Translations under genes and position numbers: made by a program | Origin: Ruditapes philippinarum | Taxonomy: Eukaryota | DNA: 64,000 nucleotides | Assembly: GCF_026571515.1 (NCBI RefSeq) | Contig: NW_026861275.1 | Location: forward strand, 1 to 64,000 | Direction: 5' to 3' | The notes under the pieces: model-generated | What the model saw: only the letters and a program-made list of their open reading frames with translations | Database searches by the model: none | What the model was told of the DNA's origin: nothing | Part shown: in pieces, positions 7,680 through 46,900 of the stretch | Numbering within the stretch: the first letter of the stretch is position 1 | How the letters are laid out: the number at the start of each line of letters is the position of its first letter

Positions 7680-9462
7680 GACCACTCTGCCACCTCTGCT
7701 ATTGACAACATTTGGACCGACTTCACATCTGCGATCTCACAGATCATAGAAACCACGGTCCCATCCAAGATGTCAACAACTAGGCACAACCAACCTTGGA
7801 TCACAGCAAAGATCAAGCGCCTTTCTAGAAGAAAGAAGAGAGCCTTTTAAGAAAGCCCAGTGCCAAGGGAGACAAACCAAGCCTATGTAACCCTAAGAAG
7901 CTCTACACTTTCATTAAAGGGAAGCGGTCTGACAGCACGGGAATCTCTCCACTAAAATGTGATGGTGTGACTCACAGCGATCCAAGTAAGAAGGCTTAAA
8001 TATTGAAAAAACAGTTCACTGGGGTGTTCACTACAGAAGATACAACAGACGTACCAGCCATGGACGGAGAAAGATACCCAGGCATGCCTCACTTCACAGT
8101 AGGAGCTGAGGGCGTCAAGAAACTTCTCCCCAGCCTCAACCCCCACAAGGCCTCTGGTCCTGACAATATACCGACACAATTTCTGAAGGACTATGCCGAA
8201 GACATTACCCCGGCTCTCACCCTCTTGTTCAACGCCTCTTTGCAACAAAGAACAGTACCTTCAGCCTGGAAGAAGTCAATGTATCACCTATCTCAAAAAA
8301 GGTGACCGTAGCAACCCCACCAACTACAGACCCATTTCCCTCACATCAGTATGCAGCAAACTCCTAGAACACACCCTACATAGCCAAATTATGAAACACC
8401 TTGACCACCACAACATCCTTTCAAATCAACAACATGGATTTAGAAAACAACGCTCAACTGAAAGTCAGCTTCTTCTCACTCTTCAAGACCTGTCATCAGC
8501 CTTGGATCAAGGGGAACAAGTAGACGCCATACTACTAGACTTCAGTAAGGCGTTCGACGTTGTGCCTCACCAACGACTCCTTTCCAAGGTGGATCACTAC
8601 GGCATCAGAGGGACAGTCAGAAGCTGGATTGAGAGCTTCCTGTCTGACCGCAGCCAACAAGTTGTCGTTGAAGGTCATTCATTTGCATCCTCCCCAGTTA
8701 CATCCGGGGTACCCCATGGGACAGTACTAGGTCCTTTACTGTTCCTTCTTTACATCAACGACCTACCAAGGTGCGTGACTTCCATCAGCCACCTATTTGC
8801 TGACGACAGCCTGATCTACAGGAAAATCAAATCAGAATCTGACGCATTAGCCCTCTAAGAAGACCTTGATAGACTCCAGGAATGGGAACGCAAGTGGATG
8901 ATGTCTTTCAATCCCAGCAAATGCAAAGTAATACACATCACCAAGAAAAGATTTATGCCTACAAGGTCCACCAATCAACTCTTCAATCTGTCAAAAGTAG
9001 AAAGTAACTTGGTGTCAACATCGCAAATAATCTTTCATGGAACATACACACAGAATATACCATCAAGAAGGCTAACAACTCTCTATAATTCCTTAGAAGA
9101 AACATCACAAGCTGCCCACAAGACATCAAGTACCCTTGTTAGACCAATCCTGGAGTATGCATGTACAGTCTGGGACCCACACACAGCCACCAACATCAAC
9201 CAGCTGGAAGCTGTCCAAAGGCGAGCTGCCCGATTTGTAAAAGGCGATGACAAAACTACCAGCAGCACCACTGCAATGATGACAGACCTAGGCTGGCCAA
9301 CTCTACAGCATCGCCGCTCCAATGTCAAGTTTACAGGATCACGCACAGTTAACCTCATAGCCATCCCAGCTGCACAGTACTTCCACCCCCTGACACTTGG
9401 TGGTCATGGCTACGGACAAAGATTCCATGTCCCATTCTGCAGAACAGACACCATGACCAGTT
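7680..9462 (+). mobile_element. CR1-type LINE, 5' part (degenerate RT)
   Basis: KASGPDNIP, NYRPISLTS, QHGFR, DFSKAFD, SGVPHGTVLGPLLF, LFADD, YACTVWDPH, LEAVQRRAARFV; several frameshifts and stops. Confidence 0.9.
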
Positions 9463-12400
9463 AATAACCTTCCGGTCAAGATGGCGGGAGAAAAAAGAAT
9501 TTTGTTGACCACATTTTTTACGATTTTAATTTGTACTACAATCAACTTTTATCAGAAAAACATTTTAAATTGTCAACGAACGATACACAATTCTTCAGGG
9601 ATCCTTGTAAATGTAACATACCCGCAGATTGGACTTGTAAATCTGTTTGAAAGACTTTCGTACCTTTCGTACTCAACTGTCAAACTCGGGGGAAGTCATT
9701 TCGACCCAGACTCGAAACAAATTTTTAAACTTGATAAACATTAAGTAACAGTAAACTTTAGATCAGTGTTCATTTTCTACTTGCTTCAGTGTGGCGATGT
9801 TCATCCTCACCCGGGTCCAGCTTCAGATAAACGTATTACTTCACGGAAAGGGAGACAACCCAGATATCCATGTACTAAATGTGAAAGAGGAGTTACCTCT
9901 CGTAGTAAAGCAGTAAGCTGTGATATTTGTCAACAGTGGACTCATATAAAATGTACCACCAGTATAACAGAAAAAGATTATGAATCCCTATGTAGAGGTG
10001 ATGTTATATTTAACTTTACGTGTAATGGATGCACATTTACTGAACTTCCATTTTCACAAGATGCTCCTAATTTTAATGCCTCTGAATTGTTGTTTACGAC
10101 AAATTCAAATGAAACACAAAATCCTTCTGAAATAAGTCAAGATCATTTCCAGTGTTTCTTTCAAAAAGGACTGCATTTTATTCATGTTAACGCGAGATCC
10201 TTACTTCCTAAAATATCGGAACTCCGGCTAATTGCACTAAAATCCAAAGCAGCTGTTATCTCAGTGTCAGAAACCTGACTCGACTCTTCAGTACCTGATG
10301 GGGAAGTTAATGTCCCAAATTATTTAGTTATAAGGCGTGACCGCAACAGGAATGGAGGTGGAGTGTGCATGTTTGTACGTGACGACCTGGCGTTCAATAT
10401 AAGAACAGACTTATCATGGGATGGCGAAGAAATCTTATTCCTGGAACTACTCTTGCCAAGAAACAAGCCTATCATTGTTGGGACTGTCTACAGACCTCCA
10501 AAACATTCTAGTTTTTTAGACAGTTTTGAAAACATTTTAACTCATTTAAGAACAGATTGTGAAACTATAATTTTAGGTGATTTTAATATTTGTGTATTAC
10601 ATAAGTCTGGTTCTTTTTACAAGTCTTATTACAATATTTTACGGCTTTTTAATTTAGAACAGATTATTTCAGAACCTACTAGAATTTGTAGTTCATCTAT
10701 TAGTCTACTTGATCATATTCTATGTAATAACAAAGAAAAAATATCTCAGTCAGGAGTTATTCCTATGGGTCTGAGTGATCATATGCTTACTTTTTGCACA
10801 TGAAAAATTGTGAAAGTTCCAGCAAAGGAACATAATTATGTTAAAATCAGGTCTTTAAAAAAATATGATAAAACAGATTTTATTTCCAGATTAACAAATG
10901 CTGACTGGAGTACTTGTTTTTACTCTACTGATGTTAATACTGCATGGATTTCTTTTAAAAATGTGTTTACTAGTGTTTTAGACTATGTGGCCCCAGTAAA
11001 GGAAGTAAGACTACGTAACCAGTCAGAGCCTTGGATTAACTCCGAAATACTAGATAGTATCAAACAAAGAGACTCGTATTTATATAGATACAAAAGGTAT
11101 GGTGAAAGAGAGGATTATAAGATTTTTTGTAAGTTAAGGAATCAAATTCAAAGAGATATAAAGACTGCTAAGTCAGAATATTTTACTAACAAAATAGAGG
11201 AAAACAAATTTAATCCTATCAAACTCTGGCAAAACTTAAAGACTTTGGGATATAAAAATGACAAGAAGAAATCTTCAAATATTGTATTATCAATTAATGG
11301 GGAAAACTGCCATGACGCTGATACTGTTTAAAATTATTTTAACGATTTTTTTACAAGTGTTGCTTCTAAACTTGTTGAGAAATTACCTTCAAGTAAAAAA
11401 TTGTATGATTTAGGGTCTGAAAAGCTTTTCAATTTTTATAGTAAAAGAAATCCTGATAGTAATATTTTAAATCTACAACATGTATCTGAAAATTTTGTTT
11501 TTAAGGAACTATGCAACTTAAATGTTAGTAAAAGCACAGGATTAGATGGTATTCCTGCCCGATTTTTGAAGGATGGTTCTAGTGTTTTGAAAATACCAAT
11601 TACTTACATTGTTAATCTATCTTTTTCTGAAGGTAAAGTACCTGATGAAATGAAGTTGGCTAGAGTAAAACCACTTTACAAGAAGAATAGTGTTCTAGAA
11701 GTTGGTAATTATAGGCCTGTCAGTATTTTAAGTGTAGTTTCAAAAATTTTAGAGAAAGCGGCTTATGTTCAACTTGAAACATTTTTGGTTTCCAATAATT
11801 TACTGTATGAACACCAGTCTGGTTTTAGAAGGTGTTATTCTACAGATAGCTGTCTTATTCACTTACAAGATGTTATAAGAATTAATACTAGTAAAGGGTT
11901 ATACACAGGTATGGTGATGCTTGACTTGCAAAAGGCGTTTGACACCGTAGACCATGATATTCTTAGTGGAAAGTTAGAATTAATGGGTGTTCAGTCTATT
12001 TCCTGGTTCAGATCATATCTTTCAGAACGTTCACAAATTGTTAATATCGGAAATACTTACTCTAAATCAAACAGTGTGACCTGTGGCCTCCCCCAAGGTA
12101 GTATTCTAGGGCCGTTGCTTTTTCTGTGCTACGTAAATGATATGATTTTAAGTATTGATAATGATTGCAAGTTAATACTGTATGCAGATGACAGCACTAT
12201 TTTATTCTCACATAAAGACCCGAATTTCATCTCAGAAAAACTTGGGACAGCCCTAGAAAGCTGTTCAGAATGGCTTGTAGACAATAAGCTGTCACTCCAC
12301 CTTGGTAAGACAGAATGTATGCTGTTTGGCCCCAAAAGAAAATTACAAAAGCAAGAACAATTTACTGTTACATGTAATGGTCATAGCATAAAGGGTACTA

Positions 12401-13524
12401 ATTTAGTCAAGTATCTTGGTCTATATATCAATAGTGATTTATCTGGGGAAACTTTTGTTAATAACATTATTTCTAAAGTGAATGCCAAGCTCAAATTTTT
12501 ATACAGGCAGAGCAGACTTTTAGATACTAAAACAAAACAGCTTTTATGTTCAGTCCTGATTCAGTGTCATTTTGACTACTCTTGTTCCTCTTGGTATGAA
12601 GGTTTATCAAAACATTTGAAAAGAAAGTTACAAATTACTCAGAATAAGGTATTAAGATTTGTCCAAAACTTAACGCCCAGAACTTCTGTAACAGTGTATG
12701 AGTTTGAAAAATTAAATTGGTTAAATGTAGAAAACAGAGTCAAACAGTTAAGACTCAATCATATGTATAAGATTTTTTTACAAAAAGAGTCCATCATACC
12801 TTAGAGCCGACTTTAGATGTTGTGCTGATGCAAGATTTTAGAACACTAGATCAAGCAATTTTAATTTTATTGTCCCCCAGTGTAATTCTGTGATGAAACA
12901 GACCTTTTATTATAATGGAATTAAAGACTGGAATGATCTGCCAGAGTATATAAAATCCATTAATAATTTTGTGCAATACAAAAAATCTGTTAAAAAGTAC
13001 CTACTAGAAAGTTATAAAAGTCTTTCAGAAGATATATATGTGTACAACTAATGTGTTAGGCACTGTGATCAAATATTTCTGTGATAGTCATCTGTGATAG
13101 TAATACTAGGCTTATTTTAAAAAGGGCATACTTTTATAAATATATTTCCTTTTTCAACCAAAATTTTGACCAAAGTTTAGTTTAGTTTTTTATCTTGTTG
13201 TTTTTTTTTGGGTTTTTTTTTGGTTTTTTTTTGTTTTTTTGTTTTTGTTTTTTTTTCTTAGGGGGGAAAGGGTTAAAATTATGTTTTTTTTTGTTTTTTT
13301 TTTATTTCTATGGACCCCATTGGAAATAAGCATTTAGCTTAATGGTCTATCCATAGGTGCATAGTACCTCTTATTTTATTTTTTTATGACAAAAGTGTGC
13401 TCTTTTATGCTGTTTTATGATCTCATTTTATTTATATGATTTATATATGTTATCTCTTAACTGTATGATTTTATATTTTGTATCATGTGCTATGTTCCTA
13501 AAATGTATAAATAAAATAGATAAA
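9463..13524 (+). mobile_element. Near full-length L2-type LINE (single ORF: hydrophobic leader, 2A-like motif, PHD, APE endonuclease, RT), nested in the CR1 element
   Basis: ORFs 9481, 9766, 10363, 10810 and 11401 share one frame, separated by 4 stops, with a frameshift near 12785. Motifs: GDVHPHPGP; C4HC3 PHD; HVNARSL/SET(W)/YRPP/GDFN/SDH (APE); YRPVS/QSGFR/DLQKAFDTVDH/PQGSILGP/YADD (RT). T-rich 3' UTR and AATAAA-rich end. Confidence 0.9.
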
Positions 13525-14028: not shown

Positions 14029-17000
14029 ATGGCGGACATGGAAGTTAGCGAGGGTAAATTTTATTTTCTTTGTTATTTCAATGACATTTGGATTAATTTG
14101 TTAAGACGAGGTGTATTTGATCACGGTAAAGTTATTTTAATTACAAATATTGGTGTGATTCATTGTTGAATTCTAGGCTTCATATTCATACTTCCCTTCA
14201 TCTACACATGAAGCCGGTTAGGAAGAGTTGTTGGATATGTTCATTTATTGATCAGATCCGCGAGCCCTGACGGTACATACCTTTACGAAGAATTTTATTA
14301 TTTGGCTTCTGACTCTCCATATATAATTATGTCGCAGTTCACTCTAACGATATGGGAAAGGTGCTGCTAAGAGGTTCTGGGCCTTGAGCGTTGCTATAAA
14401 ATACAGAAATACGCACTCAGAAAATATTTATTATCAATGAATTTGAAGTCTGGCTCGCGCCATGAAAATCTTCAGTAGGAGTGCGCATGCATGAAGGTAC
14501 TTAGTGCAGAAATAGAATATTTAGAATTGAGGCCCGTACCAGTGGTTAGTACATACTTGTTAATAAATGAATGAATGAAGAAATGAATGAATGAGTAAAT
14601 GAATAAAAGGATGAATGAATGGGATATAGGAAAATGACACAAATATAGGACTTCACAAGATATATACAGTATCAAATACGACATACATGACATGGACATG
14701 TAAATAACATAATCTACGGTGACAAACAACATAGAACATTAACACATCAATATGACCCTGCGACAATTATAAATTCAATAAGTATCAAAAGTATATAAAT
14801 TCTTTTTTTGCTGATTGTCTATGATTAATTTGATTTTATCTGACTCCGACTCCAAGTCTAGAATCATCCTACACATATACAGTAATATGAAATTAGGCAA
14901 AGCCTATGAACGGGGAAGTCGTTAAAAAATTCCTTTCATTCTTTCCGTTTTAAAATTGTCATTCGGTATTACATGCACCGCTTCCGTTTTCACTCGGAAC
15001 ACTCGACGTTTATTATTTATCCGAAAAGTTGAGATTTGTTCCGTTATCGGAATACCCCGCCTTTTATCATTGAGTTACATTGTAAATGGCGGCGCTCGAC
15101 TAGAACTGACACTGAAAATTTCCTTGATAGGTATAGAATTCTAAATATTTTTTAATTGTTTTTTATTTATTTCTTTTAAATATACACGTGTAGTCTATAG
15201 CCGGGCAAGCCAAAGCCCGGACCCGCTTCGCGGGCCCGGTCTTTGACTTCCCCGTAATATTTTACAGATTGAGATTAAGATAGGAATTAAATGTTTTCTG
15301 TCAATTAACTTATGTGAAACTCTAAGTCTAACCAATGCCATCTCAACTTTTTGTGTTTACTCAATATTTTATCACTAAGACACTAACATCCATAAAGTTA
15401 CCATCTTTATAAGGCATGTTAACCAGTAATTCTGATTTATTTAATGTTCCTGTTTTAATATTGATGTTGACAAATTTACTATTGCTCACATTGTATGATT
15501 TAATGTGATAATAAATGTTGATTTTGTCTTTCAGGAAGCGAAGCGGGTAGTCCTAGAAGCCATCAATCTGGAAGTCCAATGAGGGAAGGGTCAGTATCTC
15601 CTGCCCATAGTGGTGCATCCGGCAGTCCAATGCATGAAGGATCAGTATCTCCTACACACAGTAAAGGTTCCAGAAGTCCTGACAGAGAGGGTTCAGTTTC
15701 CCCAGCTCATAGTGCTGCTTCAGGAGGTCCTGACAGAGAGGGTTCAGCGTCCCCTGGTCAGAGGTCAGGGAGCCCTCACAGAGAAGGATCTGCCTCACCA
15801 GCTCATAGTGCAAGGTCACATTCTCCGGACAAAAGTAGGTCAGCCTCGCCTAGGAGTGTCCACAGTGGTGGGGATGGCAGTCCTTCACACAGTAGAGAAG
15901 GATCAGCAAGTCCTGCAGGAAGTCATAGGTCTGGAGGATCTGCTAGAAGTCGATCTGGTAGCCCTGCTCACAGTCATAAATCTGCACGTAGTAGATCAGG
16001 AAGTCCTGCACATAGTGAAAGGTCTGCTCGTAGTAGATCTGGAAGCCCTGCACATAGTGAAAGGTCTGCCCGTAGTAGATCTGGAAGCCCTGCACATAGT
16101 GAAAGGTCTGCTCGTAGTAGATCTGGTAGCCCTGCACATAGTGAAAGGTCTGCTCGTAGCAGATCAGGGAGTCCTGCACACAGTGAAAGGTCTGCTCGTA
16201 GTAGATCTGGTAGCCCTGCACACAGTGAACGGTCTGGTAGTCCTGCACATAGTCATAGGTCTGCTCGCAGCAGATCTGGTAGCCCAGCACAAAGCAGAGA
16301 AGGTTCAGCTAGCCCAGCTGGTAGTCGTAGATCAAGAAGCCATTCAGGTAGCCCTGCTCGTAGTAGATCAGGAAGTCCAGCATCCAAAAGGTCAAGGTCA
16401 GGTTCGAGGAGTCCAGCAGGAAGCCACAGGAGCAGGTACCTTTGTTAGATCCCATTTTAGCCAAAAATATAGTTTATAAAACCATCTGATTGTTTATTTA
16501 ATATCCCCCTTTTATGCTTTAAATAATGTATAAAAGTATCACTGGTTAACTCTATGACATGAGGATGCAATTCTGTGATAATACTTGTTTTTATTTTATA
16601 GATCTGGGAGTCCATCAGAACATGGCAGTCAGAAGAAAGGTAGGTTATATTGTTGTCTGTAATGATATTCTATTTTTCAGAACATTTTGTAAACAGTTTA
16701 GATTTCAATTCATAATTTTTTTTCCACAATGATTGCTAAGCTACATCTATGTCCTACCTTATAAACTAGAAATCTTTTAATTAAAGTTCAATTTGTTTTT
16801 AGCTTCAATTTGCATGAGCACATATTACTCAACAGTGAGCTTAGACAAATGGCATAATTCTAAAAGCAGTATTTTTGGAGTTACGTCCCTTTTACTGTAG
16901 AATTTTTAACAGGCGATCATTATCACCGCATGCTCTTGTGTTTAATCTGGTATACAGTTGTAACTGAATATTTCAGATGGGCATGCTTCTGATTCAGATG

Positions 17001-20000
17001 ATTCTATAATAGGTCGTAAGAAAGTACCGTCAGAAGATGATGGGCTGTCTGACATCGAGGGTGGGGAACAAGTGCAAGGTATAACTCTATAATATAATAA
17101 TTCTGTTCTCTCTAATATTCTTTTCTCTTATATCTGTAAAATAATGATTGTAATTGTTAGACTTAAATGATAACACCTGTAACATTACTTGATATTTTGC
17201 ATGTAGCTTTCTTGGTGGAACTCTTCAGAAATTATATAAATTATGAACCTGAGTTAGAAATTGGCCACACCCACAGAACCGGAGTTAGAAATTGGCCACA
17301 CCAACAGGATTACTTGCTAAATATTGGAAAACATACCTTATCTCTTTGTTGGAAACTACAATTTCTAGAACTTAGATAATTTGCTTGTAGCATTGCCTAG
17401 TAGACCTCTACAGTTATATGAGTTATAAATGCTCCCACCCAGAAGGTCATTTAGTATAATTTTAGATAAAACATGTTTCTGACAAGTTTCATAAATAGGT
17501 TTCTTCTTGAATTGAGAGATTAATACTCAGTCAAATTTTCGTTTAGGCATATATTCTGGACTTTGTGGTGCTCTTGTAAATTGTTACATTGCTCTCAAAA
17601 TTCTTCTGGATTTTAGTGCAATGTTTGAAGAAAAATTTAAATGTACAAGTATAGTGTTTTGTTTTCAGCCACTGTGGATGATCTGTTTGGTGATGCTGAT
17701 GATATAAGTTCTGATGAAGAGGCTAAGAAAGATTTAGATAAAAAAGATGATGATAGAGGAGATGATGATGATGAAGGTAGAACTCAGGTAATAGAAACAG
17801 ACTATACATGTAAAAACCTGTACACAGACTAGAAGACAGTTTTACATTAACATGTTGTATCTTAAAGGAACTCCACTGAGGTCCAAAGGCCTAAAAACAA
17901 AAAAATCTGAATTTCTTAAATAAATTAGCTTTGGCACTTAAAACAGGAAAATATGCAAAACATTATTACCAAATATACTCAGACATAAATTGAAAATCAT
18001 ATTTGGTGCTATTCCTAGCTTGATTGGAGTGATAAGCATTGCAACATTTTCCAATTCTGGCTTGTTTTTCACAATTAAAATCATTATTTAGGGAAAATGG
18101 AAACAGCGAATGATCAGAAATTTTGTACACAAGTTATTGGTGTAACCTACATCGCATAGAACATTTATCTCGAAAAATTATTTCCCGAGTCCTGTCATGT
18201 CATAAAACATCAGTTGGAGTCCCTTTAAATTTAGACTAATTTAAATCTAAATACTTGGTTAACTTCATGCTTTTACTTGTTTTGTAAATTTTGCTTATAT
18301 TGTTATGAATCTTGGCAGAAAAATACATTGTGTGGCTACAAATAAATTAGCCATATTCAACGAAGATCTCTCTACAGTGAAACAATGTCCAGAAAACTTT
18401 GCTTTTTAAAATCTGGATTTAACTTTTCAATTTAATGCTGATAACTACTAAGTATGACTCACATTGATATATCAGTTATATTCATCAGTTTATTGGAAGT
18501 AATTGTTTTGAGCGCGTGGTTTTCTTAGATGAAAAAACAACAACAACAAAACAACAATGTTATGATGAACCTATGTCTGGTTCTGAATGTTTTATTAATA
18601 TTCAGTTTTTGTTTATGGATAAAAGCAATTAAATAAATTAATGGCCATTAAAAATACAGTATATGATATTGTATATTATGATTTTACCGGCATTTAATAG
18701 TGTACCATTTGCCATGATGCAGCTCAATTGTTTTGTTATTCATAGAAACCAATGATAGAAGGTTCGGATTTGTTATTTATAGAAACCAATGATAGAAGGT
18801 TCGGATTTGTTATTTATAGAAACCAATGATAGAAGGTTCGGATTTGTTATTTATAGAAACCAATGATAGAAGGTTTGGGTTTGTTATTTATAGAAACCAA
18901 TGATAGAAGGTTCGGATTTGTTATTTATAGAAACCAATGATAGAAGGTTCGGATTTGTTATTTATAGAAACCAATGATAGAAGGTTCGGATTTGTTATTT
19001 ATAGAAACCAATGATAGAAGGTTCAGATTTTTGTATTTATAGAAACCAATGATAGAAGGTTTGGATTTGTTATTTATAGAAACCAATGATAGAAGGTTCG
19101 GATTAGTTATTTATAGAAAACAATGATAGAAGGTTCGGATTTGTTATTTATAGAAACCAATGATAGAAGGTTCGGATGAAGAAAACCAGGAACCAGAAGA
19201 GGCTCCGGAAACGAGAATTGAAGTTGAAATCCCGAGAATCAAAACCAACCTCGGCAAAGCTGTACATTATGTTAAATTGCCCAACTTTCTCAGTGTGGAA
19301 ACAAGGTCAGTGTATCATGATGCTTGAGGTGCTAGTGAAATAATGAATATTTGATTACTTTGTTTGTTCTTTAAGTGTACATGTATATCTAAAAATTACT
19401 GTAATAAGATGCTTACTACTAAATTGTAATTTTTGTAATTTTATTGTCTTAGCAAACAGAAACTTAGGTTGACCTGAACATTGGAAGTTTGAACCCTGGA
19501 CAGCAGCTTATGTTTTTCTGTGACCATTTTGCTTAACAATAATATTTAGAAAAACTGTTTACCCACTGTTACAATATTGTATCCATGGTAATCTTGGTTG
19601 GTTTTAACTCTGGAAGTTACTCATAAATAAAAAAGCAAGGGACAACACATTTGTAACACGTAGGTTCTGCCTGCCAGAATATGACAAACATAATTAAAGT
19701 AGTATTTTGGTACTTTACCTTTGCAATCCTAAATATCTTAAATGGACTTGAACATCTTTCATTCTGGACAATACCATTAATCACTTTTAGGGAAAATTTT
19801 AAAATATATACTGACTGAATAGCGAGCAGTGCAAGCCATGATGTGACAGCACAAGTACAGATTTGGTGGCACATTCAAGATAATTACTGACTGAATACCA
19901 AACAGTGCAGACCATGAGCAGACGGCACAAATGTACAATCTGATCTTGGTCTGCACTGGTGTCATAGGTAGAATCTGTTGTTGCTAGCTGGCTAAGGGTT

Positions 20001-23000
20001 TTCAGGAACAAGCAAAAAACTAATAATAACTGTTATAAGATGTTTATATTTCTGGTAATTTCAGACCATTTGATTCTCAGACATATGAAGATGAGATAGA
20101 TGAAGATGAAGTGTTAGATGAAGAAGGTAGAACAAGAATGAAGCTAAAAGTATGTCTTAGACTTTACTGCTTTTGTTTAATATTTCATTAATATCGAATA
20201 ATCGGACGTAGATATATAGCAATGAAACTATCAGACATGTTCCCTGTAAACTTATATACACTTTGATGCTGTGTTTAAAGTGACATTATGCTCATATTTT
20301 CATAGTCAAGTTGAGCTGAGTTGACTTTATATTTCAAAAGATTGACTGTTAAAATGGTGTTTGACCAACAGGTGATATTGGAAAACTATCAGGATAAAAT
20401 TATAAATCTGCATAAAATATAAAAAGACTGCCCCACTCTTTTTATAAACTGAGTGTTAGAGGTAAATTCTAATAGATATTTACAGAAATTTTATTTGGAT
20501 CTGTGAATTGTTTATTGTTTATGGGAAGCAAATTATTAAATTAAAAGGAATTATGGCAAATTGAAAACTTATTTTGATATTCACCTGTTCACTCACTATA
20601 TATTCTTGGATGGGCATAATGTCACTTTAAGTAATGAAAATGTGAAATATTCGAAGGAGGCAATAACAATGGCAAGTGCATTGCTGTGAAATAAAGCATG
20701 GAGTCTGACTGTTTTTGTTTATATAGAAAAACTCCAATAGTGTTAGAATATGCAATATGTTTATTATTCTTCAGGTTGAAAACACAATAAGATGGCGGAC
20801 ATTGAAAGACGAGGAAGGAAATGATTTAAAAGATGAGGAAGGTAAACCAATGAGAGAAAGTAATGCCAGGGTTGTCAGATGGTCAGACGGAAGGTAAATG
20901 GACTGTCATAATATTTTAAATGTTTATTTGGAGGCTGTTTTTGCTCCTTAAATATTTTAGCAATTTTTATTTGGTGATATGTAAAGTTAGAATTTTGTTT
21001 TATTTATGAAAGATAAAGCCATCTAAAAAATTGAGGTTATGCATAGTATTGTTGTACTCAATATGGGTTGCATTGGTCTGTTGTTTTAGCTATGTATGTT
21101 AAGTATTAGTTATAAAGATTTTTGACAGGTTATATGGCCCAATGTAAACAGTTATGATCTTATTAAGCAAACAATCATTTATAAAAGGTCATACAAGCGA
21201 GTAAAAAATCTTTAGATAAATTTATGAAACAACAAAATTCCTTTATTTGTGGAAACAGAATTTCAAAGCAGCTGTCAATATAGATTATATTAACATCACA
21301 ATTATTCAATGAAAATTGATGTAACAAATACGTAGTATAATAAGCAGTTATAAATAACCTTGTTTTATAATTTCAGTATGTCACTACATCTAGGGGAGGA
21401 AATATTTGACATACACACTATGCCAATTCAAGGAGATTTTAACCATTTATTTGTACGACAAGGAACTGGTTTACAGGGACAGTCTATATTCAAAACTAAA
21501 CTTACATTTAGGTAAGTGTCATTTCTTATGATTCAAATGATTAAAAAACCCATTCTTTTTGTAATCCTGGCACAAATGTTTTTATGCCCCAACTTAATGG
21601 GTCGGAACATATGATATAGATTTCCACTGTCTTGTTTGTCTGTCAAGCTGACTGTAGACTGACTTTACAGTGAAATATGAAGGATATCTCACATTCTTAG
21701 TTTTGTAATAGACTTCTTCCTGTTTTGATTAAGAAAGTGTCCATTAATGATAGATTAAGGGATTTAAATAGCAAAATATTGAAAATAAAAAGTCACAAGT
21801 ATGTCAAGCAGGGTCACACTGCTTTGCCAGGTTTTGTATTTAAGATAAATGGCGAAGTGATTTAATATGAGGCGTCTATTAACGTAAACGTCTGTTTTGT
21901 ACGTTTACGTCATTTCCTTTATGTATCAACTGACGAAGCTAATAAAGCAAAACATGTATTATATCTAAACATGTATTGATATCTAAATTTGTGTTGGTTT
22001 TAATCTATTTGTCCTAAGTGATTTAATACAAATTCTCCTATAGACAGAAGTAAACTAAGTTTTGTTTGATATATATTTTCAGACCACATTCCACAGAATC
22101 ATTTACACATAGAAAGATGACCCTGTCATTAGCTGATAGATCTACAAAGAAACAGAAAGTTAAAATTCTACCAATATCAGGACATGATCCTGAATCACAA
22201 AGATCGGAAATGATCAAAGTAAGTATATTGTCTATTTGTTGATGTAAATGAAGACGGTATGAGCAATGGTAAAGAATATCTAACATGTGAGTCAATGAAT
22301 GAAGGTGTTAAATATACTTTACCATTTCTCTCATCACCTTTATCTATTGTCATGTACGAAATGCTGAACCAAAAACAAAGTACATGTGCAAGTGTAGCTT
22401 TTAAGGCACTTTTGGAGTGTACTGAAATAATGCATGGAAAGTCACCTGAGGTCTTATTTGAAAGTCGCCAAATGACCTCTATAGTGTTGGTCCAACATAA
22501 AACCCAACCAAAAAAAGAAAGTTTTGAGTTTCTTAATATCAAAATTGCATTATATTATAGTATAATCTCAGTAAGTAACTTTAACAACCTTGAAGCATTT
22601 CCAAAGCTATGTTAAAATTGTTCATTACATTACATATGTAAAATAATTTTGTTGAATGTAATTGTATCATATGAAGGCAGTAGGCAGAAATGTCGGGACT
22701 ACACAAAAAGTATAAATGAGCCGCGTCATGACAAAACCAACATAGTGTGTTTGCGACCAGCATGGATTCAGACCAGTCTGCGCATCCATGCAGTCTGATC
22801 AGGATCCATGCTGTTCGCTATCAATTTCTCTACTTGTTATAGGGTTTGTAAGCGAACAGCATGGATCCTGATCAGACTGCGCGGAGGCGCAGGCTGGTCT
22901 GGATCCATGCTGGTCGCAAACCCATTATGTTGATTTTGTCATGGCGCGGCTCAAATTATTTCTGAATTTCCTTATCATGTATAGAAAGAGGAAGAAAGAT

Positions 23001-26000
23001 TACGGGCATCAACGAGGTTAGAGAGTCAGAAACGTCGTGTACGTGAGCGGTCACATGCGAAGGGTCTCAGTCACAGTTATCTCGAGGGTTACGAGGATGA
23101 GGAGGAGGAAGGAGGAATTTCATTATCAGCCATTAAAAATAAATATAAACGTGGAGATAAAAGAGGTAATTTCATTATCAGCCATTAAAAATAAATATAA
23201 ACGTGGCGATAAAAGAGGTAATTTCATTATCAGCCATTAAAAATAAATATAAACGTGGCGATAAAAGAGGTAATTTCATTATCAGCCATTAAAAATAAAT
23301 ATAAACGTGGAGATAAAAGAGGTAATTTCATTATCAGCCATTAAAAACAAATATAAACGTGGAGATAAAAGAGGTAATTTCATTATCAGCCATTAAAAAT
23401 AAATATAAACGTGGCGATAAAAGAGGTAATTTCATTATCAGCCATTAAAAACAAATATAAACGTGGAGATAAAAGAGGTAATTTCATTATCAGCCATTAA
23501 AAATAAATATAAACATGGAGATAAAAGAGGTAATTTCATTATCAGCCATTAAAAATAAATATACACATGGCGATAAGAGGTAATTTTATTATCAGCCATT
23601 AAAAATAAATATAAACGTGGAGATATTAAAAATAAATATAAACGTGGAGATAAAAGAGGTAATTTCATTATCAGCCATTAAAAACAAATATAAACGTGGA
23701 GATAAAAGAGGTAATTTCATTATCAGCCATTAAAAACAAATATAAACGTGGAGATAAAAGAGGTAATTTCATTATCAGCCATTAAAAACAAATATAAACG
23801 TGGTGATAAAAGAGGTAAGTTCATTATCAGCCATTAAAAACAAATATAAACGTGGAGATAAAAGAGGTAATTTCATTATCAGCCATTAAAAACAAATATA
23901 AACGTGGAGATAAAAGAGGTAATTTCATTATCAGCCATTAAAAACAAATATAAACGTGGTGATAAAAGAGGTAAGTTCATTATCAGCCATTAAAAACAAA
24001 TATAAACGTGGTGATAAAAGAGGTAATTTCATTATCAGCCATTAAAAATAAATATAAACGTGGAGATAAAAGAGGTAATTTCATTATCAGCCATTAAAAA
24101 TAAATATACACATGGCGATAAGAGGTAATTTTATTATCAGCCATTAAAAATAAATATAAACGTGGCGATAAAAGAGGTAATTTTATTATCAGACATTAAA
24201 AATAAATATAAATGTGGAGATATTAAAAATAAATATAAACGTGGAGATAAAAGAGGTAATTTCATTATCAGCCATTAAAAACAAATATAAACATGGCGAT
24301 AAAAGAGGTAATTTCATTATCAGCCAAAAAAAATAAATATAAACGTGGCGATAAAAGAGGTAAGTTCATTATCAGCCATTAAAACTAATGTAAACAACCC
24401 CAAAGATTTTGCAATGTCCTCTTTTCTGCCATTTTGGGGGCAGGGGACAGGGAATGTGCCTTGATGAGTTTCTGCCACACCGATTTTCAAAGATATAAGG
24501 TCTCTGAGACCCGTTATTGAACTTAAAATGTAACTGTATATATATGTTATATTTTAGATCGTCCTCATATATATTCATCAGACAGTGATGAAGGAGGTTA
24601 TGATTCAGAACAAGAAGATACTGGTGCCAAACGATTAATGAAAGCTAAAAAAGTCATCAGCGATGATGAGGTAAATATTTTACTACGTGTATATGTCTAT
24701 AAATTTCACATGTTTATAACTGATTCCCCTTCTTGTAATTGCAGAACAGAACAGTATATGATTATGTTTGCTGTAAGATCTTCAGGCAATGCAAATATTT
24801 TGTACTGTTATACATCATTTAGAATGAGCGATATTTTAGAGTTGATCAGAACGCTGTTGTAAATTGTTCTAAGGATATATCATTCCATCGTTTTGTTTTT
24901 ATACTCCCACTTTGATAGTCTGTCATTTGCAGAGAAATAAGTTATTACTGTTTACACTGGTTTAGTTAGCCAGGAATGCTGGTTAGGTAGAATGAGCGCC
25001 AAATTATGACAAAAAAGTTTTTTTAAGATCAGCTTAAAATACAGATAAACATTCAAGATAAACCCACCTTTATGTTAGTGGGCTGCAAGCCAGTGTTTTT
25101 TGCTTGTTTGTTTGTTTGTCTGTCTGTCTGAGGGAGAAAAAAAAGACTAACCTTGACTGCTAGTATAGAGCCAGGCCAGCCTGGACTTTTATGCTGTCTC
25201 ATCAAGCTCTATACTGGTGACTGACTTAGATTTTAATTTTCATCTTGATATCCCCTAAATTAATAAAACATTTGTAAATGGAAGTCTGTGTAAGAAATGT
25301 AGCAGATTGTGGGTTAAATTACGTTGTTAAAATTTGAAAATCATTACATATTATCAATCAAAAAAATTGTATTTATAAAATAATTATTATTATGGAATAA
25401 GTTGTTATTATTATGGAATAAGTTGTTATTATTTAATTTTACCTATGAAGTATGGTAGTATATCAGTCAAATATATTTCATATTAGTAAAAAATAAATAT
25501 GAAATATAAATATGAAAGTGGCGGAGTCAAAACTCATATTTATTTAAAGGACTTCTTGGACCATTTTTTTAAAAAAATCTGATAAATAAAAAACAACTTT
25601 TTGTTGAATTCTGTTTTGAAAACTAGAATGATAGAAAATGTTCTAATGTCTAACTAAGAACATAACTCCGAACACCAATATCTTTAATTCAGTTATTAAC
25701 GCTGTACAGACGTTTAAAGAGTTGTTTACGTGACGTCACAATGTAGCGTCAAATATAATGTGCAAAACAAGACGCAATATTATATTACTGCTCGCTGTAC
25801 AATTGCAGTTGCGTAGCATGCAATTGAGTCTGTCATCATTTTTCTCTGATAATGAAATTAAATAAAAAAGTTATTTTTTCGATTTACGTGAAATATGGTA
25901 TATATTTAAGAAATAATATATCCCAAACTGTGATTTTATCGCTCAATAACATCACTGTTTGGAGTTCGGATGCGAGGAATTATATCACGAGGGCGTAGCC

Positions 26001-26610
26001 CGAGTGATATAATGATGCGCATCCGAACGACAAACAGTGATGTTATCCAGCGATAAAATCACCGATTTGGATATATTATTTCGATTCTAACACAACATAA
26101 ACAAAAAAATGCTGCCGTACCAGCTATTAAGCAAAATTGCGCCTGATTTGTTTCCGTACTTATTGTCAGCGCGTCGGATTTTATAGTGGTTACGTCACAT
26201 GTATAATGATTACGTCACATGTCTAAACATAGAGCGTCAAACAGTGACTCTATTGCATAATAACACACACTTTCGGTTCTTCTATGTTCAATAGGGAAAA
26301 TGCGGGTCGTGTTAGAATTTCACTCAACATGATAAAATGCCACATATTATATTATAAATATATTCCATATTTCACTCAAACGAAAAATATCCTCTTATTA
26401 TTATTATGGAATAAGTTGTTATTATTATGGAATAACTTGAAATTTCAGGATTCTGAAACTGAGACGTTACCTAAGAAGAAGAAAGCTCGGGTTGTTGAAA
26501 GTAGTGATGAAGAGGAGGGCGGGGCCAAGGGTAGTGAAGATGAGGCGGGTGGAGCTATGGACACAGGGGGTAATGCCAGTGGTGGAGGGGGTGGTAGTGA
26601 CTCAGACTGA
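14029..26610 (+). CDS. LEO1: RNA polymerase-associated protein LEO1 (PAF1 complex), 13 coding exons
   Basis: Exons, all GT-AG with consistent phases: 14029-14053, 15535-16435, 16602-16639, 16977-17078, 17669-17787, 19154-19305, 20065-20149, 20775-20893, 21377-21511, 22083-22218, 22985-23165, 24558-24670, 26449-26610. Leo1 motifs: [132 protein letters not shown]. Confidence 0.96.
15945..16290 (+). repeat. Coding 42-bp (14-aa) tandem repeat [14 protein letters not shown] in LEO1 exon 2
   Basis: CATAGTGAAAGG recurs at 16011, 16053 and onward (period 42); about 7-8 units within a wider RS/SP-rich exon. Confidence 0.9.
17866..18224. mobile_element. Kolobok-like non-autonomous element (AGG..CCT, TTAA TSD)
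   Basis: TTAA|AGGAACTCCA…TGGAGTCCCT|TTAA; homologous copies at 40777-41123 and 50289-50599. Confidence 0.75.
18731..19177 (+). repeat. 37-bp tandem array (12 units) containing the LEO1 exon 6 splice acceptor
   Basis: Unit TTTGTTATTTATAG|AAACCAATGATAGAAGGTTCGGA; acceptor AGs end at 18745, 18782 … 19116, 19153. Confidence 0.95.
20279..20626. mobile_element. TTAA-flanked MITE (Kolobok-like)
   Basis: TTAA|AGTGACATTATGC.CA…TGGGCATAATGTCACT|TTAA. Confidence 0.7.
22718..22952. mobile_element. Palindromic MITE, Sola-like (GAG..CTC, 4-bp TSD)
   Basis: AAAT|GAGCCGCGTCATGACAAAACCAACAT…ATGTTGATTTTGTCATGGCGCGGCTC|AAAT; almost fully self-complementary; copies at 39849 and 55239. Confidence 0.8.
23117..24384 (+). 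repeat. 52-bp tandem array (~24 units) containing the LEO1 exon 11 3' end and splice donor
   Basis: Unit GTAATTTCATTATCAGCCATTAAAAA(T/C)AAATATAAACGTGG(A/C/T)GATAAAAGAG; 23 AG|GTAA sites counted from 23166 to 24360. Confidence 0.95.
25908..26318. mobile_element. Long palindromic non-autonomous element (possibly Crypton-like)
   Basis: Imperfect stem of ~80 bp centred on CACGAGGGCGTAGCCCGAGTG (~25990-26005), plus a second inverted pair ATTCTAACAC/GTGTTAGAAT. Confidence 0.5.
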
Positions 26611-31700: not shown

Positions 31701-34700
31701 TAGTTGAATAATGCGTAATATAGAGCAATAATGCTTTAATGTAGATGAATAAGGCGTAATATGGAATAGGCATTGTTGTATAACAAATTTTCACACTCAC
31801 CATGACCATGTTATCAACATAGAAACAAAAAAATCAAAACTTAACTTAAAAAATACAAGTAGATTTCAGGATATATTATGTATTCGATAATTTAATTAAT
31901 CTTAACTTCTTGTAATAAGAAAAAAAAGTTTTGTTACTTTGATATAAGAAATTGGTATTTACGATCAGTAGTACAAGTCTGTTGTATAGGAGAGCGAGAT
32001 GAAGTTGTTGACTCACTCAGTATGTAGGTTTTTGTAAATATTGATGTTGCTAAATATGCTGTCTTTGAATGAGAAGAAATAAGGGAATTTGGTAAAAGAC
32101 GAACGCAGGAAGATGGAGAAACGCCGGCATTTGTTGTTGATGCAAAATTTTCTGATGACGCAATTTGAGTAACACCAGAAGACTTTGCTGATCGCGACAA
32201 TATTGATTGATAAGATCCATATGATAAAGTTGAAGGCGATACATTAGATAATGTAGGTATAGAACTGGTGCCATATAATGGCGTTGATTCAAAAGCAGTA
32301 GAATACGATGTTAACTGTGGAGCAAAAGAAGATGTCGATTTTGTATTACTCGAAGACGTTTCTGATTGTAGAACAATAGATGATGTTTTCAAGTGAGAAC
32401 GGAGAGGAGAATGTATTGCAGACTGAGGCACGTCAAAAGATGTTGATAAATAGGGAAGGCTAGAACGTGTTGACACATTCTGTAGGTCAAAAGATGTTGG
32501 TAAATAGGAAACGGTAGTTGATGCTGCCAAGCGTGGTCTTTCAGATGATTTTGTTGAATATTGAACGCTTGAAGATGTTTCCAAAATACTGCCGTCAAAA
32601 GATGCTGATAGATACTGAACGATAGTGGATGTTGGCAGATGCTGTTTGGCAGTGCTGGAATATGTTTCCGACTGATGCAGTCCAGGAGATGTTGCTAAAA
32701 AGGGTACGCTTAAAGATAAAGCGAAATTAGGAACGACGGACGATGTTGTTGAACTCAGACTGCTTGACGATGTTCCCATATCAGAAGTGTCAGACGATGA
32801 TTTCAAATTTGGAACGCTTGAAGATGTTGACGTATGAGACACTTCTAAAAATGTTATAAGATATGGAACGCTTGTGGATATTGGCCAATGTGGTTCGCTA
32901 GACGACGTGGTTAAATTGGGAATACTTGAATATGCTGATAAATGATTTATGTCAGAAGATGTTACTAGAGAGTGAACATTTGAAGACGTTGCCAAATATG
33001 GTATAGTTGACGACGTAGCAAGATAAGGAACGCTGGACGATGTTCCAAAGTGTTGTTTGTCAGAAGAAGTTGCCGAATATGGTGTGACTAATGACGCAGT
33101 TATATAAGGAATGCTAGATAATGTTACCAAATCTTCATCAGAAGATGTTACCAAATATGGTATGGCTGATGACGTAGTTATATAAGGAATGCTAGAAGAT
33201 GTTCCAAAATGAGGTTCGTCAAAAGATGTTGCCAAATAAGGTATGACTGATGACGTAGTTAGGTAAAGAATGCTAGAAGATGTTCCTAAATGAGGTTCGT
33301 CGGATAATGTTGCCACATGAGGTTCGTCAGAATATGTTATCAAATCAGGAACGCGAGAGAATTTTGACAATAAATGTTCGTCAGATGATATTGTCAAATA
33401 ATTACAGCATGAAGATGTTGATAATTGAGGTTCGTCAGAAGATGTTGTCAAATGAAATATGTTAGATGTCGTCAAGTACTGGACGTTAGAAGATGTCAAT
33501 GTCGAAGTGCTAGTTGATGTCACTAATATATTACTGGTAGCAAAGGACACTAAATGAAGCAGATTAGAAGATTTTGTTGTATAAACGTCACTAGCTGTCA
33601 AATCAGATGGTGCAGAAAATGTAACTAGTTGGGGTGTAACGGATAAACTAGAATATATAGGTATATTTGATTGAGACACTTCATGCAGACTTGAAAACAC
33701 TGACAAAATATATAAACCTGAAGCTGTTGATTTTGTTTGAAAAACTGATGATGATTCGCTCAATCCGACTTCATTCGTAGAAGTGTACAAAACTGAAGAT
33801 TGGAGGATAAATGGTGAAGATGTAATCGTATTTAAGGTTTCGCCGACAAGGTTTGATGTTAACAAGTAGTTTATATCCATTGAAGTAGATATAACAATCT
33901 TTTTGGAAAGTGACGGCATCAATAAAGTCAAAATGTTAGAAAACGGGGGTTTTTGGTAAAAAAATGTTGATATTTTTCAGTTTTTTAATGTTGTGGGTTT
34001 AAAAAGGGTTTTTCCCTTTATTTAGCGTGCAATTCCAAAAAACTAAAATAATATTTTTTTTTATTTTCTTTTAAAAAAATGTGAAAAACGTTTTTTCTTT
34101 TTATTTCATGTTAAAAAGAATTTCAAGTAAATTTAATTAATTTAAAAAACAGGGTTTAATTTTCCTAAATCCTTTTAAATAAGAGGGTTCCCTTTAACTA
34201 CACACTCACCCAAAACAAAAGGAAACATTTTATGTTATAGGATTAATCATTACACGAAATTTGTTACTTAAATTCAACACTTATTAAATAAATCTATTTG
34301 TCCATAGGGGGTTATTAATTTTTTAAAGGAGTTATTTAAAATTTAAAGTGAATTTAAAACTCATTTTTTATTTCATTTTTTGTAAAAATGATTTGATATA
34401 AAGGGCCAAAAATTTTTTTTGACATTGGATATTTTAAAAATTCAATAAAAATAAACTAAAAAAAATTATTTAAAAAACGGGCATCAATATAAAGAAATTT
34501 TTAAAAAGGGGGCACATAAAATTTTAAACATGAAAAAGAAAGAATTCTCAATTTCTAACGTTATTTGTGCATTATAGAAATTCTTTTATTACCGGAAACA
34601 ACTACTTCACAAAATGATAATGTGTCTTCATTTCCGCCATGTTTTGATATACGGATATAATTTCCAAAAACCGGCGTACTACAGTTTACGACAACACTTG

Positions 34701-43949: not shown

Positions 43950-46900
43950 CTATACGAAATATAAACTGTTTCGTCTCTCTGAAAATAAAGTTAAAATGTG
44001 GTAAAGTTGGTAGTTTAAATATGTGGTAAAGTTGGTAGTTTAAATATGTGATAAAGTTGATAGTTTAAATATGTGGTAAAGTTTGGTAATTTAAACATGT
44101 GATAAAGTTGATTGTTTAAATATGTGGTAAAGTTAGTAGTTTCAATATGTGGTAATGTTGATAGTTAAAATATGTGGTAAAGTTGGTAATCTAAATATGT
44201 TTAATAGTTGGTAGTTTAAATATATGGTAAAGTTGGTAGTCTAAATATGTGGTAAAGTTGGTAGTTTATATATGTGGTAAAGTTGGAAGTATGAAAAGGT
44301 GGTACAGTTGGTAGTGTAAATAAGTGTTTTAATTGGTAGTTTAAATATGTGGTAAAGTTGGAAATCTTAAAACATGGTAAAGTTGGTAGTTTAAACATGT
44401 GGTGAAGTTGGTAGTCTAAATATGTGATAAAGTTGGTAGTTTAAATATGTAGTAAAGTTGGTAGTTTAAATATGTGGTAAAGTTGGTAGTTTAAATATGT
44501 GGTAAAGTTGGTAGTTTAAATATATGGTAAAGCTGGTAGTTTAAATATGTGGAAATGTTGGTAGTCTGAATATGTGATAAAATTGATAGTTTAAATATGT
44601 GGTAAAGTTGGTAGTGTAAATATGTGGTAAAGTTGGTAGTTTAAGTATGTGGTAAAGTTAAAAGTTTAAATATGTGGTAATGTTGGTAGTTTAAGTAGGT
44701 GGTAAAGTTAATAGTTTAAATATGTGGTAATGTTGGTATTCTGAATATGTGGTAAAGTTGGTAGTTTAAATATGTGGTAAAGTTGGTAGTCTAGGAATGT
44801 GGTAAAGTTGGTAGTTTAAATATGTGGTAAAGTTTGTAGTTTAAATATGTGGTAAAGTTGGTAATCTTAAAACATGGTAAAGTTGGTAGTTTAAATATGT
44901 GGTAAAGTTTGTAATCTCAATATGTGGTTAAGCTGGTATTGTAAATATGTGGTAAAGTTGGTAGTTTAAATATGTGGTAAAGTTGGTAATCTTAAAACAT
45001 GGTAAAGTTGGTAGTTTAAATATGTTGTAAAGTTGGTAGTTTAATATGTGGTAAAGTTCATAGTTTAAATATGTGGTAAAGTTGGTAGTCTAAAAATGTG
45101 GTAAAGTTGGTAGTTTAAATATGTGGTTAAATTGGTAGTTTAAATGTGTGACAAAGTTGATAGTTTAAATATGTGGTTATGTTGATAGTTTAGATATGTT
45201 GTAAAGTTTGTTGTCTCAATGAGTGGTAAAGTTGTAAGTTTAAACATGTGGTAAAGTTGGTAGTTTAAATATGTGGTAAAGTTGGTAGTTTAAATAGATG
45301 GTAAAGTTGGTAGTTTAAATATGTGGTAAAGTTAATTATGTATGTGGTAAATATATCTAAGAATGTAAATTAAAATGTGACACAGTATGAATGTAAATAT
45401 TTGGCAACGTGTGATGAAAGTTAAATTGTGGCAAGAGATATAGGTTCAAATGTGGCAAAATATAAAAAAAATAAGTTAAAATGTGTCAAAGTACGCAAGT
45501 CATGTTTGTAAGTTGAAATAAGGTTAAGTATGTAAGTTAACAGTTGGCAATGAAGTTATGTTTAAAAAAGGCAAAGTATGCAAGTTAAAATGTGGTAAAA
45601 TTTGAAAAGTTAAAATGTTGTAAATCATATAAGTTAAATGTGTGCAAAGTGTGTAAGTTAAAATGTGGTAATTATGTAACTTAAAAATATGGTAAATTAT
45701 GGAAGGTAAAAGTGGTAAAATATATAAGTTAGAATGCAGTAAAGTATGTACGATGCATAGTAAAACATGTTCTTTGAAGTGGCTGGTTGATGAAATTCAT
45801 ATAAGAAGAAGAAAGAAAGAAAGAAAAAAAGAAAGAAAGAAAGAATATTTGTATTGACGTGAAAAGAGAAGATGACTTACCAACAGGAGTGAGAGATCTT
45901 CCACCTGTAAAGAAACAAACAGACTTTCAATACACAGTAAGAACGTATTTATTACTGTTTAAACCCCTTGAAGTATTGTAGAAATTAACAGTTAAATCAA
46001 TCAATAAATTAATTAATTAATTAATTAATTAATTTATTAAGCAATTGATTTTATCGTCAATAAATTAATTCAATTCTTTAGTTATGTTGATTTATAAATA
46101 CATCGATTAATAATCATGATAATAAATTAACAACAAATATATGTTTTAATAATTATAATGATAACAATAATAATAATAAATCAACAACGAAAATATTTTT
46201 TACTGCCAAATTAACATAAGTAATTCGGACTTAATGAAAAGTTGCTTTTAAAGGACTCAATAAATATTTTCATATAACATTTAAGTTAGATTTATATAAA
46301 TCAGACAACGTTTGAAATTGGACGTGGTTTTTATTTGCAATTACGGTCACCTAATAGACAGAACTTGCATCTATTTATAAGAAAACTTAGTTGATAATAT
46401 GATGTAGAAGATAATTCACAAACCTGGTACGCTGGGATGAGAATGGAATTGTTGTGATCGTGGTGGTTGGCTATTTTCTACAGGAGTAGAATCGTCCACC
46501 ATGTTGAAATCGCTCTCCGAGTCCTGATCACTTTGTCTCCTGTATTATATATAACTTAGTTATCTCAAACCCCCAAATTTGTATAATCAATTTGTCCTGT
46601 TTTGAATTTGGCAATGTCTCTAGCTTTTTTATGGGGTGTCAATATCAGTGAATTGTTAAAATGAATCACGCATGTGCAGATTGGCAGGACTTAAAACTAT
46701 GCTTATTTAAAATAAACGCGTGAAATTCAGTAACTTATTATTTGAAATCAACCAAAATCGTGATACAAGTCAAATATAGATGTATACATTATGATTTAAT
46801 ACTGTCACAATTATACAAAACAATTTGAAGAAGAAGATGAAAAAGGTACAATGGTTACCATACCTATTTCTGGCAGCTTGGATTTTTGGTTTACAACCTC

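What the first reader, a model, noticed from the sequence alone, without database searches (positions are those of the whole stretch)
18731..19177. Twelve tandem copies of a splice acceptor in an essential gene; only one simple choice is productive
Seen: the 37-bp unit spans the intron 5/exon 6 junction. Any upstream AG frameshifts the exon or hits TGA (AAC CAA TGA); only the last AG (19153) gives [10 protein letters not shown]. The unit also holds an AAG|GTTCGG proto-splice site. Using the first acceptor, a 16-nt micro-exon and re-entry at the last AAG|GT would make the same mRNA. Inference: either strong exon-definition selection of the distal copy, or intron gain by tandem duplication in progress; array length could set the NMD fraction.
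Basis: partly seen in the sequence, partly recalled or inferred. Interest (0 to 1): 0.7.

Follow-up and report, generated by a model that had tools for sequence, protein, structure and literature searches.

The report
Repeated splice acceptor in clam Leo1
A 37-base piece spanning the start of one exon of a clam's Leo1 transcription gene is repeated twelve times in this genome and occurs only once in another animal's allele; the few RNA reads seen join at the last, correct copy, so it is likely a tolerated repeat of a kind already known from lancelet and human genes.

Summary
The array is real: 12 copies of a 37-bp unit (14 intron + 23 exon bases) end at the start of exon 6 of the only Leo1 gene found in this genome. 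Every upstream AG leads to an early stop. DNA of 3 of 3 runs laid holds the repeat, and one also holds a single-copy allele, so it is a length polymorphism, not an assembly artefact. In one RNA run, 6 of 6 reads crossing the exon start join exon 5 to the last copy; that animal's genotype is unknown. The micro-exon/intron-gain route is unlikely: its re-entry acceptor scores below nearly all real sites. It fits the published amphioxus 'mirage' class, and the intron-gain idea is already in print. This scan noted six similar arrays elsewhere in this genome. Added here: the same gene has a mirror 52-bp array with 23 donors at exon 11, and 7 of 29 short arrays near sampled exons span a junction, a possible but unproven excess. 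Verdict: a new member of a known kind, low interest.

The parts
18732..19177 (+). 37-bp minisatellite, 12 copies; unit = last 14 nt of intron 5 + first 23 nt of exon 6 (acceptor-type 'mirage')
18700..18745 (+). native intron end with the first acceptor (copy 1); this flank joins straight to the exon in the single-copy allele of run X9
   Evidence: loose end before 19140 matches this flank
18746..19153 (+). copies 1-11: decoy acceptors, each leading to a premature stop; likely removed with intron 5
19152..19153 (+). productive acceptor AG (copy 12)
   Evidence: only array AG giving the full frame; 6 of 6 junction reads
19154..19305 (+). Leo1 exon 6, 152 nt, purine-rich just after the last copy
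17669..17787 (+). Leo1 exon 5, donor CAG|GT at 17787
   Evidence: loose-end consensus of X24 reads
19167..19171 (+). AAG|GT proto-splice site of the last copy (proposed re-entry acceptor); very weak
14029..26610 (+). Leo1 gene (PAF1 complex subunit), 13 exons, 755 codons
   Evidence: Pfam PF04004 matches exons 8-10 and no other place in G000
23112..24395 (+). second array in the same gene: 52-bp unit spanning the exon 11 donor, 23 donors (23165-24359), only the first productive

Best explanation
It is a length-variable minisatellite made from the intron 5/exon 6 junction of Leo1, and the spliceosome likely ignores the eleven upstream copies by pairing the acceptor nearest the exon's own donor, so the repeat is likely tolerated clutter. 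Shown: the unit, the stops, array and single-copy alleles, and last-copy joins in one RNA run. Inferred: a 37-bp tandem duplication across the junction grew by ordinary minisatellite turnover; exon definition plus the purine-rich exon body behind copy 12 selects that copy; NMD would clear any leak. In array alleles the working acceptor is therefore a new composite whose upstream (branch) region is exon-derived, while the original acceptor has become a decoy.
For: Array in DNA of 3 of 3 runs from 3 studies, plus a single-copy allele in X9. RNA run X24: 13 reads laid, 6 join exon 5 at the last copy, 6 join exon 7, zero depth on 19066-19137. The copies score alike as acceptors (4.1-8.7; copy 12 is 6.3 and not the best) and are equally accessible in folding, so position and downstream context are what differ: 73% purine and 8 GAA in the 70 nt after copy 12, against 56-59% and 3 for copies 1-10. 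3 of 7 substitutions sit at the unit's one CpG, as real germline changes would (post hoc P=0.005). Seven other junction-spanning arrays sampled blind also run from the coding copy into the intron. Published mirages do not disturb splicing and vary in copy number (PMC3087553, PMC3902484 passages); F7 IVS7 uses only the exon-proximal donor (PMC1557585 abstract and Discussion).
Against: X24's genotype at the array is unknown, so its reads may come from single-copy alleles; its 7 reads at 19174 carry G like array alleles, not the A of X9's single-copy allele, which is only a hint. Six reads allow up to about 39% upstream use, and NMD would hide more. Copy 11 would give an exon of only 189 nt, so size alone does not exclude it. 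The classic scanning rule favours the first acceptor (PMC1557585 Discussion; PMC9225289 Introduction). The exon-definition rule comes from human data, not molluscs. No long reads confirm the number twelve.
Confidence: 0.8

Rival explanations
1. The array is leaky: longer alleles send more transcripts to upstream acceptors and NMD, so copy number tunes or burdens Leo1 dosage.
For: All 12 AGs are intact and of similar predicted strength; alleles range from 1 to 12 copies; LEO1 is dosage-sensitive in humans (PMC12765696 abstract).
Against: 0 of 13 RNA reads cover the repeat junction; published mirages gave no aberrant mRNA; no sign that the array is conserved, since a single-copy allele segregates.
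Confidence: 0.12
2. Intron gain in progress: copy 1 is used, a 16-nt micro-exon is kept, and a new 408-nt intron from AAG|GT of copy 1 to AAG|GT of copy 12 is removed.
For: It yields the identical mRNA. Duplication of an AGGT site can create a working intron (PMC3265369 abstract and passages), and the model is drawn for mirages (PMC3087553).
Against: Re-entry acceptor scores -4.4, below all but under 1% of 163 picked acceptors, with two AGs just upstream and a 33% pyrimidine tract; donor GTTCGG scores 5.2 (20th percentile) with a U1 duplex weaker than 11 of 12 real Leo1 donors. Hellsten's working case had a pyrimidine tract and consensus donor.
Confidence: 0.03
3. The array, or its count of twelve, is an assembly artefact.
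For: No read or contig spans the whole array; cycle depths suggest about 3-4 exact repeats, fewer than twelve.
Against: The repeat junction exists in three runs, two of which differ from the window at several exon positions; copies carry distinct, CpG-biased variants; variants lower exact-word depth.
Confidence: 0.03

Closest known systems
Amphioxus 'mirages' (BflGb6, BflGb9, Adh3, troponin C, PGBD5); PMC3087553 and PMC3902484, passages read; the original Adh3 paper PMC117041 was not held
   Same: Minisatellite-like tandem copies of an intron-exon boundary; BflGb6 repeats the 3' end of an intron plus the exon start, as here; copy number differs between haplotypes (6 and 3); normal splicing reported; an intron-gain model proposed.
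   Different: A mollusc, not a cephalochordate; 37-bp unit against 150-160 bp in BflGb6 (Adh3 units 10-72 bp); a single-copy allele still segregates; acceptor and donor arrays sit in one gene.
Human F7 intron 7 37-bp VNTR; PMC1557585, abstract and Discussion read
   Same: Polymorphic 37-bp unit spanning a junction; identical pseudo-sites stay silent; the exon-proximal site is used even when others are stronger. The Leo1 exon 11 donor array is a direct match in layout.
   Different: F7 repeats a donor, where first-come scanning picks the right site; in the acceptor array the right site is the last one, so scanning from the intron side cannot explain it.
Intron gain by tandem duplication of an AGGT site (ATP2A1); PMC3265369, abstract and passages read
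   Same: The unit holds an AG|GT site, and the joined mRNA would be unchanged.
   Different: That duplication is wholly exonic with a pyrimidine tract; here the unit carries an existing, much stronger acceptor and the proto-site has no tract.

Membership tests
mirage (junction-spanning minisatellite) | Head-to-tail repeats whose unit spans an intron-exon boundary | tested here: met
   14 intron + 23 exon nt, 12 copies
mirage (junction-spanning minisatellite) | One terminal copy is the authentic junction; the others lie in the intron and keep AG/GT signals | tested here: met
   only copy 12 gives the full frame; all 12 AGs intact
mirage (junction-spanning minisatellite) | Copy number varies between haplotypes | tested here: met
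   single-copy and array contigs in X9; array in X1 and X5; 12 in the window
mirage (junction-spanning minisatellite) | Regular splicing is not disturbed | tested here: inconclusive
   6 of 6 junction reads regular, but few, and the animal's genotype is unknown
mirage (junction-spanning minisatellite) | Somatic length instability (reported for Adh3, via PMC3087553) | not testable with these tools
   needs single-molecule data from tissues of one animal
intron gain by AGGT tandem duplication | Duplicated AG|GT proto-site that leaves the mRNA unchanged | tested here: met
   route 18746-18761 + 19170 gives the same exon
intron gain by AGGT tandem duplication | New acceptor has a pyrimidine tract and new donor is near consensus | tested here: not met
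   acceptor -4.4, 33% pyrimidine; donor GTTCGG, GTTC in 1 of 164
intron gain by AGGT tandem duplication | The new intron is actually excised | not testable with these tools
   mRNA is identical either way; needs lariat or nascent reads
Leo1 (PF04004) | Leo1 domain above the curated cut-off | tested here: met
   three matches over cut-off, all in this gene

The most novel reading that the evidence does not exclude
This clam genome makes minisatellites preferentially at splice junctions, so thousands of its exons sit behind or before rows of intact decoy splice sites; Leo1, with both an acceptor and a donor array and a segregating single-copy allele, is a ready natural test of how exon definition overrides first-come scanning and whether copy number costs gene dosage.
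Probability: 0.3. Interest if true: 0.5.

Novelty: new member of a known kind. Interest (0 to 1): 0.22.

Why it matters
On its own it is one more mirage. Its use is as a test case: acceptor arrays force the spliceosome to pass eleven valid-looking sites, and a single-copy allele gives a built-in control for allele-specific splicing. If the excess of such arrays at junctions holds genome-wide, it would point to a mutational link between splice junctions and repeat birth. I found no paper on this in bivalves (open-access library only). Such arrays can also mislead gene annotation and short-read mapping.

Tried and rejected
RNA structure hiding upstream copies: tract accessibility 0.32-0.57, copy 12 the lowest with copy 10; rejected. 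Selection dulling decoys: no AG is mutated among 7 substitutions and one indel; too few to test. Frame rescue by the alternative donor at 17776: no upstream acceptor becomes productive. A second Leo1 copy or a dispersed copy of the unit: none found, though the DNA search skips common words. One search was swamped by a dispersed repeat at about 22716-22953; X21 and X22, labelled RNA, show GATC joints and look like Hi-C DNA, so they were not used for splicing; X23 had depth near 1. Census limits: at Pfam-matched boundaries only, 3 loci (4 with a duplicate) against 0.93 expected, P=0.07 (0.015); the second sample gave 0 of 3. No full-protein family scan was obtained; identity rests. No relatives' genomes are held, so the age of the array across species is open. 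Supplements (e.g. BflGb6 alignments) were not read.

Full report
Observation. The window holds a 37-bp array at 18732-19177, 12 copies at 95% match. Each unit is 14 intron bases ending in AG plus the first 23 bases of an exon. A 13-exon model from 14029 to 26610 gives an open frame of 755 codons. Pfam Leo1 matches three exons of this gene above the cut-off and nothing else in G000. The array spans the intron 5/exon 6 junction. All 38 AGs tested upstream of 19154 lead to a stop at codon 402-427; the AG before 19154 gives the full frame. Two related runs are labelled mollusc; earlier notes of this scan call the animal Manila clam, which I did not check.

Is it real? Contigs of three DNA runs from three studies were laid on the last copies and exon 6 (3 of the 14 DNA or unlabelled runs listed). 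All three hold a 67-nt contig, the size expected when a 37-bp cycle collapses at word length 31: depth 25.8 against about 7 in X1, 154 against 38-46 in X5, 83 against 20-26 in X9. X9 also has a 404-nt contig (depth 24.3) that runs from the native upstream flank straight into the exon: a single-copy allele. X1 may be the assembled sample; X5 and X9 differ from the window at several exon positions. Within the window, 3 of 7 substitutions between copies hit the unit's single CpG. The array is a real length polymorphism. The count of twelve rests on the assembly alone.

Which acceptor is used? In RNA run X24, 13 reads were laid: 6 have loose ends that match the end of exon 5, 6 match the start of exon 7, and depth is zero on 19066-19137. 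So 6 of 6 junction reads go from exon 5 to one unit and on into the exon. This is thin. It bounds upstream use only below about 39%, NMD would hide more, and the animal's genotype is unknown. The other three raw runs gave nothing usable.

Why the last copy? A weight matrix trained on splice sites picked at 164 Pfam-matched exons of this genome plus Leo1's own scores the copies alike (4.1-8.7; copy 12 is 6.3). The picked set includes some false sites. Folding shows no special access to copy 12. What differs is position and what follows: copy 12 is nearest the exon's donor and is followed by purine-rich exon (73% purine, 8 GAA in 70 nt), the others by the next U-rich tract. In human data, exon-proximal sites are preferred when flanking introns exceed about 250 nt (PMC9225289, passages); here they are 958 and 759 nt. 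That enhancer-like sequence and exon definition do the choosing is inference. One consequence: in array alleles the original acceptor is a decoy and the working one has an exon-derived branch region.

Intron gain. The micro-exon route gives the same mRNA, so reads cannot exclude it. Its acceptor scores -4.4 with a 33% pyrimidine tract and two AGs just upstream; its donor GTTCGG scores 5.2 and GTTC opens 1 of 164 picked donors. The proven case of intron gain by duplication had a tract and a consensus donor (PMC3265369, abstract and passages). I put it at about 3%.

A second array in the same gene. A 52-bp unit at 23112-24395 spans the exon 11 donor, with 23 donors; all but the first read into TAA at codon 672. 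Some downstream donors are stronger (13.2 against 10.8), and the last lies 198 nt from the next acceptor. X24 depth of 8.7 in the bin 23121-23230 is what the exon part alone would give (22 x 45/110), which fits first-donor use only indirectly.

How common is this here? I took 230 kinesin, myosin and aldehyde dehydrogenase matches (all listed) and the best 30 each of 68 UCH and 56 DEAD matches, with flanks: 757 kb. Of 30 arrays with unit 14-110 bp, 3 or more copies and 85% or more match, one is a duplicate locus. Seven of the remaining 29 span a junction: five acceptors (C4572, C11363, C4915, C14505, and C8866 by only 4 nt) and two donors (C15363, C1773/C6719). Four of these exons were judged by eye from frame and signals; part's output was cut and was shown again. 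A uniform-birth null expects 1.5-3.1, P=0.0005-0.02, for an assumed 1.5-3 boundaries per kb. On Pfam-matched boundaries alone, 3 loci of 580 boundaries against 0.93 expected gives P=0.07, and the second sample gave 0 of 3. So about 0.5% of junctions carry such an array; an excess is possible but not shown.

Comparison. The layout is that of the amphioxus 'mirages'. BflGb6 repeats an intron end plus exon start, has 6 and 3 units on two haplotypes, splices normally, and the paper draws an intron-gain model (PMC3087553, passages of section 16 and legends; PMC3902484, one passage). Human F7 IVS7 is the donor-side case with mechanism tested (PMC1557585, abstract and Discussion). Three defining features are met here, one is inconclusive. 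This scan noted six similar arrays on other pieces of this genome; those notes gave me the name and papers and are not support. Searches found no bivalve paper.

Verdict. Real, polymorphic, likely tolerated; new member of a known kind; interest 0.22.

Noticed in passing
window 23112-24395: 52-bp array with 23 copies of the exon 11 donor of the same gene; downstream GTAAGT copies score higher than the first donor and the last is 198 nt from the next acceptor.
   Followed up: partly
G000 C4572:207200-207854, C4915:25479-26677, C14505:133533-134009, C11363:26415-26522, C8866:281229-281508, C15363:45006-45130, C1773:127845-128126 and C6719:60623-60860: Further junction-spanning arrays in kinesin, myosin and aldehyde dehydrogenase gene regions; the last two are apparently the same locus with 6.4 and 5.4 copies.
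   Followed up: partly
G000 C6102:3442-4247, C2412:118416-119161, C9155:157097-157733, C15208:449843-450133, C14397:14408-14776, C14505:148673-148854: Arrays that stop 5-25 nt short of a splice site, or whose unit resembles a decayed exon end; possibly older mirages.
   Followed up: no
runs X21, X22: Labelled RNA-Seq but full of joints at GATC; they look like Hi-C DNA libraries.
   Followed up: no
window 22716-22953: Very abundant dispersed repeat in intron 10, also plentiful in RNA runs X23 and X24.
   Followed up: no
window 15535-16435: Leo1 exon 2 encodes a Ser/Arg-rich tract with about seven 14-residue repeats (42-bp period).
   Followed up: no
window 17669-17787: X24 reads show one extra GAA codon near the end of exon 5; exon 6 has many allelic differences between runs.
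   Followed up: no
window 9745-12804 and 8187-9464: Broken LINE-like endonuclease/reverse-transcriptase frames upstream of Leo1 (labels recalled from motifs, no family call).
   Followed up: no
window 46770-49403 (-) and 31934-33976 (-): Long Thr/Pro-rich and Ser/Thr-rich mucin-like open frames.
   Followed up: no
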